DNA from: a virus
Taxonomy: Duplodnaviria > Caudoviricetes
Length of the DNA: 64,000 bases
Direction: 5' to 3' (one strand)
Virus record (IMG/VR): IMGVR_UViG_640753059_000001
The notes beneath the pieces were generated by a model. It had not been told where the DNA came from, ran no database searches, and saw only the letters and a program-made list of their open reading frames with translations. Below are positions 18,505 through 23,286 of this stretch, piece by piece. Position 1 is the stretch's first letter, and every line of letters begins with the position of its first letter. A program made the translations under genes and the position numbers.

Positions 18505-19044
18505 ATGGCAAAGAGGCGTGGACGCATCTCGGAACAGAACCAGGTCGGCCGCATGGTCCTGCCAGAGGACCGCATCCGCAACGGGATGATGGACGGCCCC
18601 TCATATCGCAGGACCAGGATGCGGGAGAAGGCGCCCCGCGCCTCTGCCATCCCCCGCGCGCCAGTGTCCACCGAAGATGTGGAGAGGCGCGTCATGCGAG
18701 CGATGAAGACGCTCCGGGCTCTTCCCGATAAGGAAGCCAGATTCCACCGTGTCCAGTCACAGTGGCCATCCCATGTCCAAGAGGCAATGGACGCCTACGG
18801 CAGCGTAGAGGCCGTGATCCCGCGCTTCAACCCGACGCCGTTCGATGTCACGGATTGCCTCCATGCCCTAACGTGGGTGAGGCATCTCGAAAAGAACGAC
18901 TGGAAGATACTGTGGTGGCGGTCGTTCGAGTTGTCCTTCGGGACCATCGCGATGTATATCGGGCGCTCAGATGAGACCGCGAGACGGCGCTATAGGGACA
19001 TCATGATCGATGTATGGACCGCTGCAAATGGTCTGGCGACGTGA
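18505..19044 (+). CDS. Late transcription regulator (Q position; DUF6362-like, C-terminal HTH)
   Basis: AMKTLRALPD..SQWP..ALTWV..ILWWRS..SFGTIAMYIGRSDETARRRY; last gene before ncRNA/terminase. Confidence 0.65.
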   Translation: MAKRRGRISEQNQVGRMVLPEDRIRNGMMDGPSYRRTRMREKAPRASAIPRAPVSTEDVERRVMRAMKTLRALPDKEARFHRVQSQWPSHVQEAMDAYGSVEAVIPRFNPTPFDVTDCLHALTWVRHLEKNDWKILWWRSFELSFGTIAMYIGRSDETARRRYRDIMIDVWTAANGLAT

Positions 19045-19270
19045 TGTTCAGATGAGGCCGGCGCTTCGTCTTTGAGTTATCCACAGGAAAGCGAAAATTC
19101 AGTCTTGTTTTTTCGTGGCAAATGTGGCTTAAGGGATATCGAAGCAATTCAAAATGGGCCGCAGTGCGGCGAGGCGTTGCGCGCGCGGCAATATGAAGGT
19201 TTTGAGCCGAGGCTCATCCAGAAGGTACAGTGCCGCGACCGAGGCCTCTTGTGATTCTCGCGGCCGGACT

Positions 19271-19369
19271 GGCAGACGAAACCGAGTAGTACGCCCGGAC
19301 GCCGGTTCGAATCCGGCCAGTCGAAAGGCTGTAGCTCAGTGGATAGAGCGGTGGCGGAAACCCGGGCCA
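19271..19369 (+). ncRNA. Arm-permuted tRNA-mimic RNA (YrlA/Y-RNA-like topology)
   Basis: T-arm 19301-19317, GAAA-capped stem 19318-19331, D-arm 19334-19349, closing stem 19293-19298/19362-19367, ends GCCA. Confidence 0.7.
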
Positions 19370-19371
19370 AT

Positions 19372-19573
19372 AGTTTCGCGCTACGGCGCAGTGTAATCCC
19401 TGAGCGAAAGCTCGTGTTGAAGCAAGGCGCGCGATAGTGCCGAGTGGAGCGGGTGAGTAGGTGACGCGGCACGGCCCCGCGATGGACCGCCGGGAAGCTA
19501 CGGCGACAGGGTGAGGACGGCGCAAGCCGGTGGCCAAGGCCTTTGCCTCCCCCGAGTTTCGCGCTACGGCGCA
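19372..19573 (+). repeat. 19-nt direct repeat AGTTTCGCGCTACGGCGCA x2
   Basis: Exact copies at 19372-19390 and 19555-19573; AGTTTCG again at 19669-19675; each full copy has a c(UACG)g hairpin. Confidence 0.9.
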
Positions 19574-19774
19574 CACGAGTTCGACGCGGTTCCGAAAGCC
19601 GCCATTGGAACGCGAAAACGGCGACTGTGGCGTTGGCCGTGCCTCGTGGAAATGGCCCCGCGTCGATCAGTTTCGAGAGAGCGCCAAGCGCCGGCCTCTC
19701 GGGAGAGCGTTCCTCCAGGCTTGGAGGCGAAGCCCGTGGATTTACCCGCGGCCGCAGGGGTGGCTTCCCTGCGC
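19391..19774 (+). ncRNA. Structured RNA domains of unknown class
   Basis: GNRA hairpins (GAGC-GAAA-GCTC, CGGC-GCAA-GCCG), long-range stems (GTGCCG/CGGCAC, TCGACGCGG/CCGCGTCGA); no convincing ORF. Confidence 0.55.
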
Positions 19775-19779
19775 TATGC

Positions 19780-19854
19780 ATCGGTGTGTTGTAGTGGAAG
19801 CATGCGGGTCTCCAAAACCCTGCGGCGGGGGTTCAAATCCTCCCACCTTTGCCA
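19780..19854 (+). tRNA. tRNA-Trp(CCA), degenerate
   Basis: Anticodon loop CTCCAAA, T-arm GGGGG-TTCAAAT-CCTCC, encoded G-CCA; two acceptor-stem mismatches. Confidence 0.75.
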
Positions 19855-19869
19855 ATTTGGACTAAGGCC

Positions 19870-20094
19870 ATGTCCCGTTCTCGCAGACATACTCCGATCT
19901 TCGGAAATACCTGCTCAGAGAGTGAGCGGCAGTTCAAGGCATTCGAGCATCGCCGGGAGCGCAGAGCCATCCGGGCCGCGCTGCCTGACGACGACCTGCC
20001 GGCGCCCAAGGCCTATGGGAACCCATGGGCTGGTCCCAAGGACGGCAGGCACTACTGGGGTTCAAAGGCGCGTGACAAGGACATGAGGAAGTAG
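19870..20094 (+). CDS. Small Arg/Lys-rich protein
   Basis: MSRSRRHTPIFG...HRRERR...NPWAGPKDG; 15 nt after tRNA. Confidence 0.75.
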   Translation: MSRSRRHTPIFGNTCSESERQFKAFEHRRERRAIRAALPDDDLPAPKAYGNPWAGPKDGRHYWGSKARDKDMRK

Positions 20095-20096
20095 CC

Positions 20097-20273
20097 ATGC
20101 CTCTCCTATTCTGGATCGGGGCATGGACGATCATGTTTGGTCTGGCTCATGGCTGTGTCCCTGTGGCCCCGGCAGAGCCGCCCCGCGCAGTGCTCCCGTC
20201 CATTCCGCAGGTAGACCATCCTGAAGGCCGGCGGCAGAAGCGCGACGCTCGCGGGCGGTTTGTGAAGGGGTGA
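20097..20273 (+). CDS. Small membrane/lipoprotein with RDARGRF tail
   Basis: Hand translation MPLLFWIGAWTIMFGLAHGC...QKRDARGRFVKG; overlaps next start. Confidence 0.5.
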   Translation: MPLLFWIGAWTIMFGLAHGCVPVAPAEPPRAVLPSIPQVDHPEGRRQKRDARGRFVKG

Positions 20274-20957: not shown

Positions 20958-21263
20958 GTGATGGACGCCTCGAAAGGCAAGGCCGCCCCTAAGGTAGGAT
21001 TGGATAGGTCCAAGACCGGCCGGAAGAAGGGCACCCCGAACAAGACGACTGCGCTCCTCAAGGACGCAATCATCAAGGCCGCTGAGGCTGTGGGCGAAAA
21101 CGGCGAAGGACGCGAAGGATTGGTCGGCTACCTGAAGCGGGTGGCGAAAGAGGACGTGAAGGCATTTTCGTCCCTGCTTGGAAAGGTCCTCCCGTTGCAG
21201 GTGACAGGCGACAATGATGGGCCTATCCAGATCCTCGTCTACCCTGAGGACCGCTCCGTTTGA
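20958..21263 (+). CDS. terS: Terminase small subunit
   Basis: GRKKGTPNKTT..LKDAI..LLGKVLPLQV; directly upstream of TerL. Confidence 0.8.
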   Translation: MMDASKGKAAPKVGLDRSKTGRKKGTPNKTTALLKDAIIKAAEAVGENGEGREGLVGYLKRVAKEDVKAFSSLLGKVLPLQVTGDNDGPIQILVYPEDRSV

Positions 21264-23286
21264 ACTAACAGGCCGCCAGAGGGAAGCCCTTCGGCTCCTT
21301 GGAGGCCCGCAGCGGCATACGATGCTTGCGGGTGGCGCGAGGTCGGGCAAGACGTTCCTTCTTACGCGTGGCGTTGTCGTTAGGGCGCTGAAGGCTCCAG
21401 AGAGCCGGCACGCTATCCTGAGGTTCAGGGCAAACGCAGTTCGGTCGTCTGTAGCGCTGGACACACTGCCTAAGGTCACCAGCCTGTGCTTCCCTGGCCT
21501 GAAGCTTGTCGAGCACCGGCAGGATGGGTTCTTTGAGCTTCCGAACGGCTCTCAGATCTGGCTAGGTGGTCTGGACGACAAGGAGCGGGTTGAAAAGATC
21601 CTCGGGCAGGAATATTGCTTGGACCCAGAATCCCTCGTTCTCGCGGCTGACCTGCGTTGGGTCCCGGCGCACACTCTCAATGTCGGCGATCAGATCGTTG
21701 GGTTCCCGGAAGACCTGCGCGGAAACCAGACGCTGGAGCGCTCCAGCGTTGAGCGCACCGAGATTATAGAGGCGCATAAATATCGGGTCGTCACGGATCG
21801 TGGGGAGACGATTGTCTCGGCGCAGCACAAATTCGTCTACGGCAAGCCCCGCACGCACAACCGCTTGCGATGGGTCGACGCGCAAAACTTAAAACCGGGT
21901 GACTGGATCAAGTTTGCCGCGTCGCCTTGGGCTGAGAAAAAGGATTACACCGGCGGGTGGCTAGCGGGCATTTATGACGGTGAAGGGTGCATCTCCCAGA
22001 CGGACACTTACACCCACTGTCAGGTTGCCCAGAAGCCTGGCCTTGTCCTCGACGCCATTCGAGAAGGTCTTGCGGAAATTGGCGTGATCGCCAATGAGTC
22101 GCCGCAATCGGCCAGCGGCGTAGTCAACCTGCATTGTGCTGGCATGTGGCAGGCTATGCGGCTGCTTGGCATGGTCCGCCCACGCCGGCTGATGCCAAAA
22201 TCTGCTAAGGTTTGGGAGGGACGGCGGGCATTCAACACGCGCGGCGACCACCATTATGCGAAGGTCGTGTCGGTGGAGTACATTGGCCGTGGACCGGTCG
22301 TGTCGCTCGGCACCAGCACCAAAACGCTGATTGCTGACGGGTTCTTGGGCCATAATTGCACCCTCTATTTTAACGAGTGCTCGCAGATCCCTTATAGCTC
22401 TATCCTAGTCGCCCGCACCCGTTTGGCGCAGGTTGTGCCGGGCCTGATGCAGCGTGCACTTTATGACCTGAACCCAGCCGGGACGGGGCATTGGACCTAC
22501 CGCGAGTTTATCGAGGGGCGCGACCCGATCAGCGGTGCGCCGCTTAGTGCCCCGGACAATTTTCAGCATATGTTCCTCAACCCTGGGGACAATGCCAAGA
22601 ACCTGTCACCTGAGTTCCTGAGGAGCCTTGAGGCGCTGCCAGAAAAGCAGCGGCGTCGGTTTTTCGATGGCATGTACGTCGCGGAGATCGACGGCGCGCT
22701 TTGGACGCTTGATCTAATTGAGCGGTGCCGGTCAGAGCCAATCGCTCCTGGCGATCACCGGCTGAGGCGCATCGTCATCGGGGTTGACCCATCGGGGGCT
22801 GCGAACAAGGAAGACGCGAGGTCCGATGAAATCGGCATTGTCGTCGCAGGCATGATGGACGACGGGACGGCGGTCATCCTTGAGGATGGTACTGTCCGGG
22901 ACGGGCCGTCAGGCTGGGGCAAGGTCGTCGCTGGCCTCTACCATAAGTGGGGTGCTGACCGGGTGATCGCAGAGCGAAACTATGGCGGTGCCATGGTTGA
23001 GTTCGTGATCCTCACGGCGGACAAAAGCATTCCGGTTTCGGTGATTACAGCGTCGCGTGGGAAGCACATCCGAGCTGAGCCGGTGTCCGCGCTCTACGAG
23101 CAGGGCAAGGTGAGGCACGCGGGCCGGTTTCCTGAGATGGAAGACCAGTTCACCAACTTTTCGACATCCGGATACATGGGCGACCGGTCCCCGGATCGCG
23201 CCGACGCGGCTGTGTGGGCGCTCACCGAACTGATGCTCGACCCCGACCAGTTCGACCCCAATAAGTGGATCAAGGCCTTTTCATGA
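21214..23286 (+). CDS. terL: Terminase large subunit containing an intein
   Basis: Walker A GGARSGKT, LYFNE, LNP, IGVDPS, DRADA nuclease motifs. Confidence 0.95.
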   Translation: MMGLSRSSSTLRTAPFELTGRQREALRLLGGPQRHTMLAGGARSGKTFLLTRGVVVRALKAPESRHAILRFRANAVRSSVALDTLPKVTSLCFPGLKLVEHRQDGFFELPNGSQIWLGGLDDKERVEKILGQEYCLDPESLVLAADLRWVPAHTLNVGDQIVGFPEDLRGNQTLERSSVERTEIIEAHKYRVVTDRGETIVSAQHKFVYGKPRTHNRLRWVDAQNLKPGDWIKFAASPWAEKKDYTGGWLAGIYDGEGCISQTDTYTHCQVAQKPGLVLDAIREGLAEIGVIANESPQSASGVVNLHCAGMWQAMRLLGMVRPRRLMPKSAKVWEGRRAFNTRGDHHYAKVVSVEYIGRGPVVSLGTSTKTLIADGFLGHNCTLYFNECSQIPYSSILVARTRLAQVVPGLMQRALYDLNPAGTGHWTYREFIEGRDPISGAPLSAPDNFQHMFLNPGDNAKNLSPEFLRSLEALPEKQRRRFFDGMYVAEIDGALWTLDLIERCRSEPIAPGDHRLRRIVIGVDPSGAANKEDARSDEIGIVVAGMMDDGTAVILEDGTVRDGPSGWGKVVAGLYHKWGADRVIAERNYGGAMVEFVILTADKSIPVSVITASRGKHIRAEPVSALYEQGKVRHAGRFPEMEDQFTNFSTSGYMGDRSPDRADAAVWALTELMLDPDQFDPNKWIKAFS
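21616..22356 (+). mobile_element. Intein (247 aa) with LAGLIDADG motif
   Basis: N-terminal CLDPESLVL, block B SAQH, WLAGIYDGEG, C-terminal LIADGFLGHN followed by Cys+1. Confidence 0.93.

What the first reader, a model, noticed from the sequence alone, without database searches (positions are those of the whole stretch)
19150..19860. Repeat-punctuated polycistronic ncRNA cassette at the head of the late operon
Seen: about 700 nt lacks a credible ORF. It is divided by AGTTTCGCGCTACGGCGCA (19372, 19555) and AGTTTCG (19669) into the tRNA mimic, a ~165-nt multi-stem domain with GNRA loops, a ~95-nt domain closed by TCGACGCGG/CCGCGTCGA, a three-hairpin domain and tRNA-Trp. The ~95-nt domain has alternative or pseudoknot pairings (GCCATT/AATGGC, CACGAG/CTCGTG). 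Each full repeat is a single-stranded AGUUU followed by an extra-stable c(UACG)g hairpin. Inference: the repeats are processing signals (RNase E-like cut plus protective 5' hairpin) that release several distinct small RNAs of unknown class.
Basis: partly seen in the sequence, partly recalled or inferred. Interest (0 to 1): 0.72.

Follow-up and report, generated by a model that had tools for sequence, protein, structure and literature searches.

The report
Modular RNA array before phage terminase
A Xanthobacter prophage carries, just ahead of its DNA-packaging genes, an 0.8-kb gene-free stretch that strings together a tRNA look-alike, two folded RNAs of no catalogued family and a tRNA, separated by a conserved short hairpin that in related phages sits directly behind ordinary tRNA genes.

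Summary
Window 19045-19869 is non-coding, and the 19-nt repeat occurs exactly twice (19372, 19555; 0 of 100 shuffles). The listed stems and tRNA-Trp are all present.

The repeat is (R)UUUC + GCGC-UNCG-GCGC. I found 17 copies in 11 related prophage or phage loci, always at module borders. Three copies lie directly after the CCA of true tRNAs. It is not a host-wide repeat.

Related phages differ by whole modules at these borders, so this is a patchwork array in a tRNA slot, not one giant RNA.

- The "tRNA mimic" is a sub-threshold YrlA (Y RNA-like) match. The genome has no Ro60 gene.
- The 165-nt domain is a conserved structured RNA with compensatory changes and no Rfam match.
- The 95-nt domain is a conserved 9-bp stem around a hypervariable interior. 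Its proposed pseudoknots are not conserved.
- The third AGTTTCG is not the same element.

Processing at the repeat (RNase E-type cut in a tRNA-trailer-like UUUC) is plausible but untested. The second repeat is also built into a covarying junction of the 165-nt RNA, so "single-stranded AGUUU" is doubtful.

The scan had already followed up the sister array 18 kb beyond this window and reached the same patchwork reading.

The parts
18505..19044 (+). Upstream gene, DUF6362 protein (possible late regulator; function unknown)
   Evidence: Pfam PF19889 E 2.6e-24, phrog_6836
19054..19066 (+). 5' arm of a 13-nt perfect long-range inverted repeat (GAGGCCGGCGCTT); partner at 19686-19698
   Evidence: I2; 0 of 300 dinucleotide shuffles reach 13 nt; not seen conserved in relatives
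19276..19382 (+). YrlA-like (Y RNA-like) permuted tRNA mimic. It has a T-arm, a GAAA-capped acceptor-like hairpin and a D-arm, enclosed by GCCCGG (19293-19298) / CCGGGC (19362-19367). The basal stem is CGAAAC (19277-19282) / GUUUCG (19373-19378).
   Evidence: Rfam RF02553, 38.1 bits (gathering 69), E 1.6e-6, model positions 1-114; only hit in the genome; no TROVE/Ro60 gene in the genome
19372..19390 (+). Punctuation copy 1: A-GUUUC + GCGC-UACG-GCGC + A
19394..19554 (+). Module 2: conserved structured RNA of about 165 nt with no catalogued family. It has GAAA- and GCAA-capped hairpins. The P2 5' strand is at 19411-19417 and the P3 5' strand at 19419-19423.
   Evidence: Homologues: L009 97%, L013 91%, L003 88%, L021 at 142.9 bits with model R1, and the 3' half in L005. 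Covariation: 4 pairs with double changes, reached by 3 of 500 shuffles. No Rfam match at E<=10.
19555..19580 (+). Punctuation copy 2 plus ACACGAG-U. GUUUC pairs with GAAGC, and ACAC(GAG) pairs with (CUC)GUGU, closing module 2 into a multi-way junction. This is the most conserved block of the whole array family.
19581..19666 (+). Module 3: conserved 9-bp stem UCGACGCGG/CCGCGUCGA around an interior that differs completely in sequence and length between phages
   Evidence: (C-G to U-A double change in L003)
19667..19779 (+). Module 4: conserved start UCAGUUUCGAGAGAG, then three or four local hairpins unique to this phage. It includes the 3' arm of the 13-nt inverted repeat (19686-19698).
19780..19854 (+). 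tRNA-Trp (CCA anticodon), CCA encoded, two mismatches in the acceptor stem
   Evidence: ARAGORN; Rfam tRNA 36.1 bits and alignment; 91% copy in another Xanthobacter genome
19870..20094 (+). First small ORF after the array (74 aa, no family); a similar C-terminus follows the array in L022
21214..23286 (+). Terminase large subunit, placing the array at the head of the packaging/late genes
   Evidence: Pfam Terminase_6C, phrog_979 E 6.8e-61

Best explanation
This is a phage tRNA-operon-type array of small structured RNAs in the leader of the packaging (late) genes of a Xanthobacter prophage. Its units are exchangeable cassettes. In order they are an orphan YrlA-like tRNA mimic, a 165-nt structured RNA of a new family, a conserved stem carrying a hypervariable insert, a few hairpins and tRNA-Trp.

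The 19-nt repeat is the family's standard inter-unit element. It is a U-rich tRNA-3'-trailer-like stretch (GUUUC) followed by a very stable GCGC-UNCG-GCGC hairpin.

Most likely the array is made as one precursor and cut by host enzymes. RNase E would cut in or next to the UUUC, as it does 0-3 nt after CCA in E. coli tRNA precursors. RNase P would cut at tRNA 5' ends. The hairpin would then protect the new ends.

The same conserved element also gives the homology at which related phages swap modules.

Shown: non-coding status, repeat conservation and placement, module exchange, and conserved structure of module 2. Inferred: co-transcription, cleavage at the repeat, and any function of the released RNAs.
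For: 1. Non-coding.

2. The repeat is specific. The whole genome has 4 copies, all in this array and its sister array 63 kb away. The exact 19-mer occurring twice was matched by 0 of 100 shuffles.

3. There are 17 copies in 11 loci, all on the sense strand at module borders. Of these, 13 have UNCG loops. Two have compensating GCCC/GGGC stems with GAAA or GAAU loops.

4. The repeat lies directly after the CCA of tRNA-Ser (L022), tRNA-Met (L023) and tRNA-Pro (L194), and after a tRNA-like unit (L054). Here it follows the YrlA-like unit, which ends GCCAAUA.

5. Host tRNA trailers are likewise U/C-rich, for example CCA-GTTTCTC. The host encodes RNase E. E. coli RNase E cuts CCA|AAUUCG-type trailers ahead of hairpins (PMC5291269).

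6. Whole modules are gained, lost or swapped exactly at the hairpins:
- L013 versus L006: with or without module 2.
- L009 versus L007: a different module between two hairpins.
- L022 versus L054: with or without three tRNAs.
- L009 versus L194: with or without module 2 plus module 3.

7. Module 2 has a conserved fold. The evidence is 4 double-change pairs, coordinated 1-nt deletions in both P2 strands in L021, and six differences between the two copies in this genome that all fall in loops, linkers or give U-A to U.G.

8. The arrays lie just upstream of small-terminase-like or other late genes in relatives.
Against:
- No sigma-70-like promoter was found between 18400 and 19870, so the transcript start is unknown.
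- GUUUC is predicted to be base-paired in both full copies, which would hinder RNase E.
- The stem sequence GCGC is conserved rather than freely covarying. That would also fit recognition by a protein or recent recombination.
- Only about six distinct module 2 sequences exist, so the covariation statistics are thin.
Confidence: 0.58

Rival explanations
1. One long cis-acting leader RNA rather than released small RNAs. The most conserved block is the UNCG hairpin, ACACGAG and the 9-bp stem. It would act on the transcribing polymerase (processive antitermination, as the two-hairpin put RNAs of phage HK022 do) or otherwise control read-through into the late genes. The other modules would be passengers.
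For: - The hairpin+ACACGAG+stem block is 90-100% identical across 10 loci while everything around it is mosaic.
- The sister array ends in an intrinsic terminator just before the small-terminase-like gene.
- A relative (L004) has a promoter followed at once by a terminator hairpin.
- A 13-nt perfect long-range pairing spans most of the leader.
- P2 pairs across the second repeat.

The put comparison is from memory and was not tested.
Against: - No terminator-like site follows the array on the + strand in this window.
- Up to three hairpin copies occur per leader, and they sit directly behind tRNA CCA ends. An antitermination element does not need this.
- In L005 a terminator precedes the block.
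Confidence: 0.22
2. The repeats work at the DNA level. They would be binding sites for the packaging enzyme (cos/pac-type repeats upstream of terminase) or simply recombination joints, with no RNA role.
For: - The repeats lie upstream of terminase genes.
- The stem is a DNA palindrome, and palindromic protein sites also keep symmetry.
- Module indels end at the repeats.
- HNH homing-type endonuclease genes lie next to two arrays.
Against: - All 17 copies share one orientation, and their loops are UNCG or GNRA only when read on the sense strand.
- They abut tRNA CCA ends.
- In L021 the array lies before a head protease gene, not a terminase gene.
- The ACAC after the hairpin covaries with GUGU 160 nt upstream, which is an RNA-level constraint.
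Confidence: 0.1
3. A functional Ro60/Y RNA system: the YrlA-like unit and its neighbours are Y RNAs that work with a Ro60 (Rsr) protein.
For: - The YrlA model aligns end to end at E 1.6e-6.
- GACGAA at 19275-19280 resembles the GNCGAAN0-1G motif of the Ro60-binding strand (PMC4201824).
- Y RNA loci often hold several RNAs processed from one precursor.
Against: - There is no TROVE-domain gene in a 100%-complete genome, while the control genomes do score.
- The score is far below the gathering threshold (38 versus 69).
- The final G of the motif is missing.
- No relative array carries a YrlA-like unit.
Confidence: 0.05

Closest known systems
Phage tRNA gene clusters that also encode small stable RNAs of unknown function (phage T4 tRNA region with 'species 1 and 2' RNAs; from my own knowledge, not checked here), and tRNA genes in the late-operon leader of lambdoid Stx phages
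   Same: A run of tRNA and tRNA-sized structured RNAs on one strand in a phage, presumably cut from a common precursor by host RNases. The location is between the late regulator region and the late genes.
   Different: Here most units are not tRNAs. The units are separated by one conserved hairpin element, and the content is reshuffled between close relatives. Processing is not demonstrated.
YrlA / bacterial Y RNA-like RNAs (Rfam RF02553; PMC4201824)
   Same: The tRNA-like module is permuted in the same order (T-arm, closed acceptor-like stem, D-arm). The basal stem is formed by the 5' and 3' ends, and the 5' strand carries GACGAA.
   Different: It scores below the family threshold. The genome has no Ro60/Rsr gene. 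It lies in a phage RNA array, and its 3' stem strand is the array's generic GUUUCG trailer.
GOLLD and ROOL large ornate RNAs of phages and prophages (RF01998, RF03087; PMC12286853)
   Same: Structured non-coding RNA next to tRNA genes in a prophage, of unknown function.
   Different: There is no Rfam match even at E<=10. This is not one large conserved RNA but a patchwork of modules of about 40-200 nt that come and go independently.
RNase E-processed tRNA 3' trailers of E. coli (PMC5291269)
   Same: A U/A-rich stretch directly after CCA followed by a G+C-rich hairpin, for example CCA|AAUUCG.
   Different: The hairpin here has no U-tail and so is not a terminator. It is reused behind non-tRNA modules and is sequence-conserved across phages. 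Cleavage is untested.

Membership tests
YrlA (Rfam RF02553) | Score at or above the curated gathering threshold (69 bits) | tested here: not met
   38.1 bits, E 1.6e-6, full-length alignment
YrlA (Rfam RF02553) | tRNA-like module: T-arm, closed acceptor-like stem, D-arm, in that order | tested here: met
   GCCGGUUCGAAUCCGGC / CAGUC-GAAA-GGCUG / UAGCUCAGUGGAUAGAGC aligned to the model
YrlA (Rfam RF02553) | GNCGAAN0-1G motif in the 5' strand of the terminal stem (PMC4201824) | tested here: inconclusive
   GACGAAAC at 19275-19282: GNCGAA is present, the closing G is absent
YrlA (Rfam RF02553) | Encoded next to, and bound by, a Ro60/Rsr (TROVE) protein | tested here: not met
   PF05731 finds nothing in the 100%-complete genome, while the controls are positive. 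Binding is not testable here.
tRNA (tRNA-Trp) | Cloverleaf recognised by ARAGORN and by Rfam RF00005 above threshold | tested here: met
   (36.1 bits versus 29); acceptor pairs 2-71 and 3-70 are mismatched
GOLLD / ROOL | Match to the family covariance model | tested here: not met
   No hit at E<=10 in 18900-20100 or in the related loci
GOLLD / ROOL | One large RNA conserved as a unit | tested here: not met
   Modules are present or absent independently in relatives
Polycistronic tRNA-type operon processed by RNase E / RNase P | Units on one strand, with tRNAs among them, and U-rich trailers after CCA | tested here: met
Polycistronic tRNA-type operon processed by RNase E / RNase P | Single precursor transcript and RNA ends at the inter-unit element | not testable with these tools
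CRISPR-like repeat-spacer array | Many direct repeats with 25-50-nt unique spacers | tested here: not met
   There are two repeats 183 nt apart, and the 'spacers' are conserved structured RNAs

The most novel reading that the evidence does not exclude
The hairpin element defines a cassette system for phage small RNAs. A dedicated, sequence-specific signal would both release each unit from the precursor and serve as the exchange point. Through it these phages would trade tRNAs, tRNA mimics without anticodons and new structured RNAs. One example is the 165-nt module. Another is the conserved stem with a hypervariable insert, which could be a target-specific or decoy RNA. The cargo would act against host tRNA-directed defences or on host RNA metabolism.
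Probability: 0.15. Interest if true: 0.85.

Novelty: new variant of a known kind. Interest (0 to 1): 0.55.

Why it matters
Phage tRNA clusters are usually read as codon-usage helpers. This case differs in three ways.

- The same slot, with the same trailer signal, holds non-tRNA RNAs that are swapped between close relatives. That points to a wider, modular use of the host tRNA-processing machinery to produce phage small RNAs.
- It supplies a Y RNA-like tRNA mimic in a genome with no Ro60. This bears on whether such mimics have Ro60-independent roles.
- It supplies two uncatalogued RNA motifs that can be tested directly. One is the 165-nt junction RNA. The other is the conserved stem with a variable insert.

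The family is narrow: three Xanthobacter genomes of 32 for module 2, plus a few uncultured phage contigs. The immediate reach is therefore modest.

Tried and rejected
- **Rfam:** searches at gathering and at E<=10 gave only tRNA and the weak YrlA match.
- **Metagenome scans:** a module 2 pattern found nothing. The junction pattern found 13 loci, of which 11 were chance matches in coding DNA.
- **Chance match:** pattern GAGGACGGCGNNAGCCGGTGG also hit two contigs (L019, L020) that proved to be a chance match inside a gene.
- **DUF6362 as a guide:** there were no close relatives in viral contigs. The 29 DUF6362 loci from other genomes of the order have no array downstream, so the array is not tied to that gene.
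- **Model R1:** it found nothing in 150 other genomes of the order.
- **Permuted T-arm to D-arm pattern in viral contigs:** it mostly returned tandem tRNAs. A few canonical-looking YrlA RNAs turned up but were not followed.
- **15-nt hairpin pattern in the genus:** it is near background except for loops UACG and UUCG.
- **Single-sequence folding:** energies are no better than shuffles (z +1.1, -0.5, -0.2), which is uninformative at this G+C content.
- **Ideas rejected on sequence inspection:** hammerhead-like reading of CUGA...GAAA...GUUUC (core not met), host REP element, and a coding region.

Full report
**Setting.** The window lies in a Xanthobacter chromosome (record titles of the closest loci), at G000:C1:4024496-4088495. 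The region of the finding sits between a DUF6362 gene (18505-19044) and a run of small ORFs that leads to the terminase large subunit (21214-23286). "Head of the late/packaging genes" is therefore a fair description.

**The observation.**
- The 19-mer AGTTTCGCGCTACGGCGCA is exact at 19372 and 19555. No third copy exists in 64 kb even with three mismatches, and no shuffle gave two copies.
- Third-position G+C periodicity is strong in the flanking genes and disappears between 19000 and 19750.
- The long ORFs that cross the region have no family.
- Homologues differ by indels that would break any frame.

**What the repeat is.** In the whole 5.6-Mb genome the motif TTCGCGCT[A/T]CGGCGC occurs four times. 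Two copies are here and two are in a sister array 63 kb downstream, in what looks like a second prophage. It is therefore not a host repetitive element.

DNA, pattern and covariance-model searches recovered related arrays in several places:
- other Xanthobacter genomes (L003, L005, L006, L007, L189, L194);
- four IMG/VR phage contigs (L013, L021, L022, L023);
- one metagenome contig (L054).

Eleven of these loci hold 17 aligned copies of the element.
- The consensus is (R)UUUC-GCGC-UNCG-GCGC-(R).
- Thirteen loops are UNCG.
- Two copies have GCCC/GGGC stems with GAAA or GAAU loops, a compensating change.
- All copies are on the strand of the tRNAs.

In L022, L023 and L194 the element begins at the nucleotide after the encoded CCA of tRNA-Ser, tRNA-Met and tRNA-Pro. 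In L054 it follows a tRNA-like unit ending CACCA. Host tRNA genes have similar U/C-rich trailers, for example CCA-GTTTCTC. The host encodes RNase E. In E. coli, RNase E cuts 0-3 nt after CCA in trailers such as CCA|AAUUCG ahead of a hairpin (PMC5291269).

**A patchwork, not one RNA.** Pairs of loci with the same flanks differ by whole units whose borders are the hairpins.
- L013 has module 2 where L006 has only the hairpin.
- L009 and L007 share the preceding module and carry different modules between two hairpins.
- L022 has three tRNAs that L054 lacks.
- L194 lacks module 2, its hairpin and module 3 relative to L009.

In this window only 19372-19390, 19394-19589 and 19657-19679 have homologues among these loci. 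The first 230 nt, the YrlA-like unit, the interior of module 3 and the hairpins of module 4 are unique. An earlier follow-up of the sister array reached the same "exchangeable modules in a tRNA slot" reading (e1-5946415). I reached it independently from other loci.

**The modules.**

*(a) 19276-19382, the YrlA-like unit.*
- It aligns end to end with Rfam YrlA (38.1 bits against a threshold of 69; E 1.6e-6).
- It has the family's permuted T-arm, closed acceptor-like stem and D-arm.
- GACGAA lies where the family has GNCGAAN0-1G (PMC4201824).
- The genome has no TROVE/Ro60 gene, while the control genomes do score.
- No relative array carries such a unit.
- It is best called an orphan YrlA-like tRNA mimic. 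Its 3' stem strand is the array's generic GUUUCG.

*(b) Module 2, 19394-19554, plus the second repeat.*
- This is a conserved structured RNA. Identities are 97% (sister copy), 91% and 88%. A more distant copy in L021 scores 142.9 bits with model R1.
- On six sequences, 95% of cells pair. Four pairs show double changes, a level reached by 3 of 500 shuffles, and slid controls fall to 36-52% pairing.
- Informative events include CGCCG/CGGCG becoming UGCCG/CGGCA in L021 and a variable GGCC/GGCC hairpin.
- The most informative event concerns the GUGU/ACAC pairing between 19414-19417 and 19573-19576. It becomes GUGC/GCAC in L013, is U.G in L009, and loses one nucleotide on both strands in L021.
- This pairing puts the second repeat inside a multi-way junction of module 2. 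GUUUC (19556-19560) lies opposite GAAGC (19419-19423).
- The six differences between the two copies in this genome fall in loops or linkers, or give U-A to U.G.
- There is no Rfam match. With model R1, module 2 was found in 3 of 32 Xanthobacter genomes and in none of 150 other genomes of the order.

*(c) Module 3.*
- It keeps its 9-bp stem, with a C-G to U-A double change in L003.
- Its interior is unrelated in sequence and length in every phage, at about 38-110 nt.

*(d) The third AGTTTCG.* It belongs to a different conserved block, CAG[U/C]UUCGAGAG, which is the 5' strand of the module 4 stem in relatives.

**Weighing the mechanism.** Three observations make a tRNA-type processing and stability signal the best-supported reading:
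- the element sits behind tRNA CCA ends;
- it shows strand-specific UNCG/GNRA loops;
- the host has the expected enzyme.

That reading is not proven. Three further points leave room for a cis-acting leader function, for example read-through control, or for recognition by a specific protein:
- GUUUC is predicted to be paired in both copies here.
- The stem is conserved in sequence rather than freely covarying.
- The block hairpin+ACACGAG+9-bp stem is the most conserved part of all arrays.

Other observations also fit a read-through control layout. The sister array ends in a terminator before the small-terminase-like gene. A relative has a promoter followed at once by a terminator.

A purely DNA-level role is unlikely because of the strand-specific loops, the link to CCA ends and the long-range RNA covariation.

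**Verdict.** This is a new variant of a known kind (phage tRNA-operon-type RNA arrays) with two uncatalogued RNA motifs and an orphan Y RNA-like mimic. It is of moderate interest.

Noticed in passing
window 19054-19066 and 19686-19698: A 13-nt perfect inverted repeat (GAGGCCGGCGCTT / AAGCGCCGGCCTC) 619 nt apart brackets most of the array. None of 300 dinucleotide shuffles reaches this length. The 5' arm begins only 10 nt after the DUF6362 stop codon, so it would matter only if the array is co-transcribed with that gene. No equivalent was found in relatives.
   Followed up: partly
window 19780-19854 and 19116-19127: The phage tRNA-Trp has two mismatched acceptor pairs (2-71, 3-70). Its 3' end CCACCUUUGCCA is complementary (11 of 12) to UGGCAAAUGUGG about 700 nt upstream. 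By a rough count, such a match is expected about once by chance in this region.
   Followed up: partly
G000:C1:4106500-4107560 (locus L009 1156-2066), about 18 kb beyond the window's end: A sister array lies in a second, adjacent prophage. It has two UUCG hairpins, a 97% copy of module 2, module 3 with a different interior and a long module 4. An intrinsic terminator then lies just before a small-terminase-like HTH gene.
   Followed up: partly
L004 1700-1790 (minus strand), Xanthobacter genome G015: A TTGACG...TAGACT promoter is followed within about 40 nt by a terminator hairpin (GTGCCGCAG...CTGCGGCATTTTT). It lies upstream of a 91%-identical tRNA-Trp. The layout resembles lambdoid late promoters that need antitermination.
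   Followed up: no
L013 1901-2455 (minus strand); L054 636-1109: Free-standing HNH_3 + AP2 homing-type endonuclease genes lie immediately after two of the arrays. They could drive the module exchange. Pfam confirmed the L013 gene; the L054 gene was judged only from its translated sequence.
   Followed up: partly
L005 1489-1790 (Xanthobacter sp. AM33): Here only the 3' half of module 2 remains, preceded by AT-rich foreign DNA. A tRNA-Met plus a terminator is inserted between GUUUU and the hairpin. This looks like a rearranged or decayed array.
   Followed up: no
L081, L112, L115, L130 (IMG/VR contigs): A pattern for a T-arm followed within 18-19 nt by a D-arm picked up RNAs that look like canonical YrlA (GGTTACTTC upstream, closed acceptor-like hairpin). 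I did not check whether these phages encode Ro60.
   Followed up: no
L021 8856-8928; L054 about 470-560: Degenerate tRNA-like units sit inside related arrays. One has a Met-CAU-like anticodon arm and an aberrant T-loop. Another has a good D-arm and ends CACCA. This suggests tRNA genes in this slot often decay into, or are replaced by, mimics.
   Followed up: no
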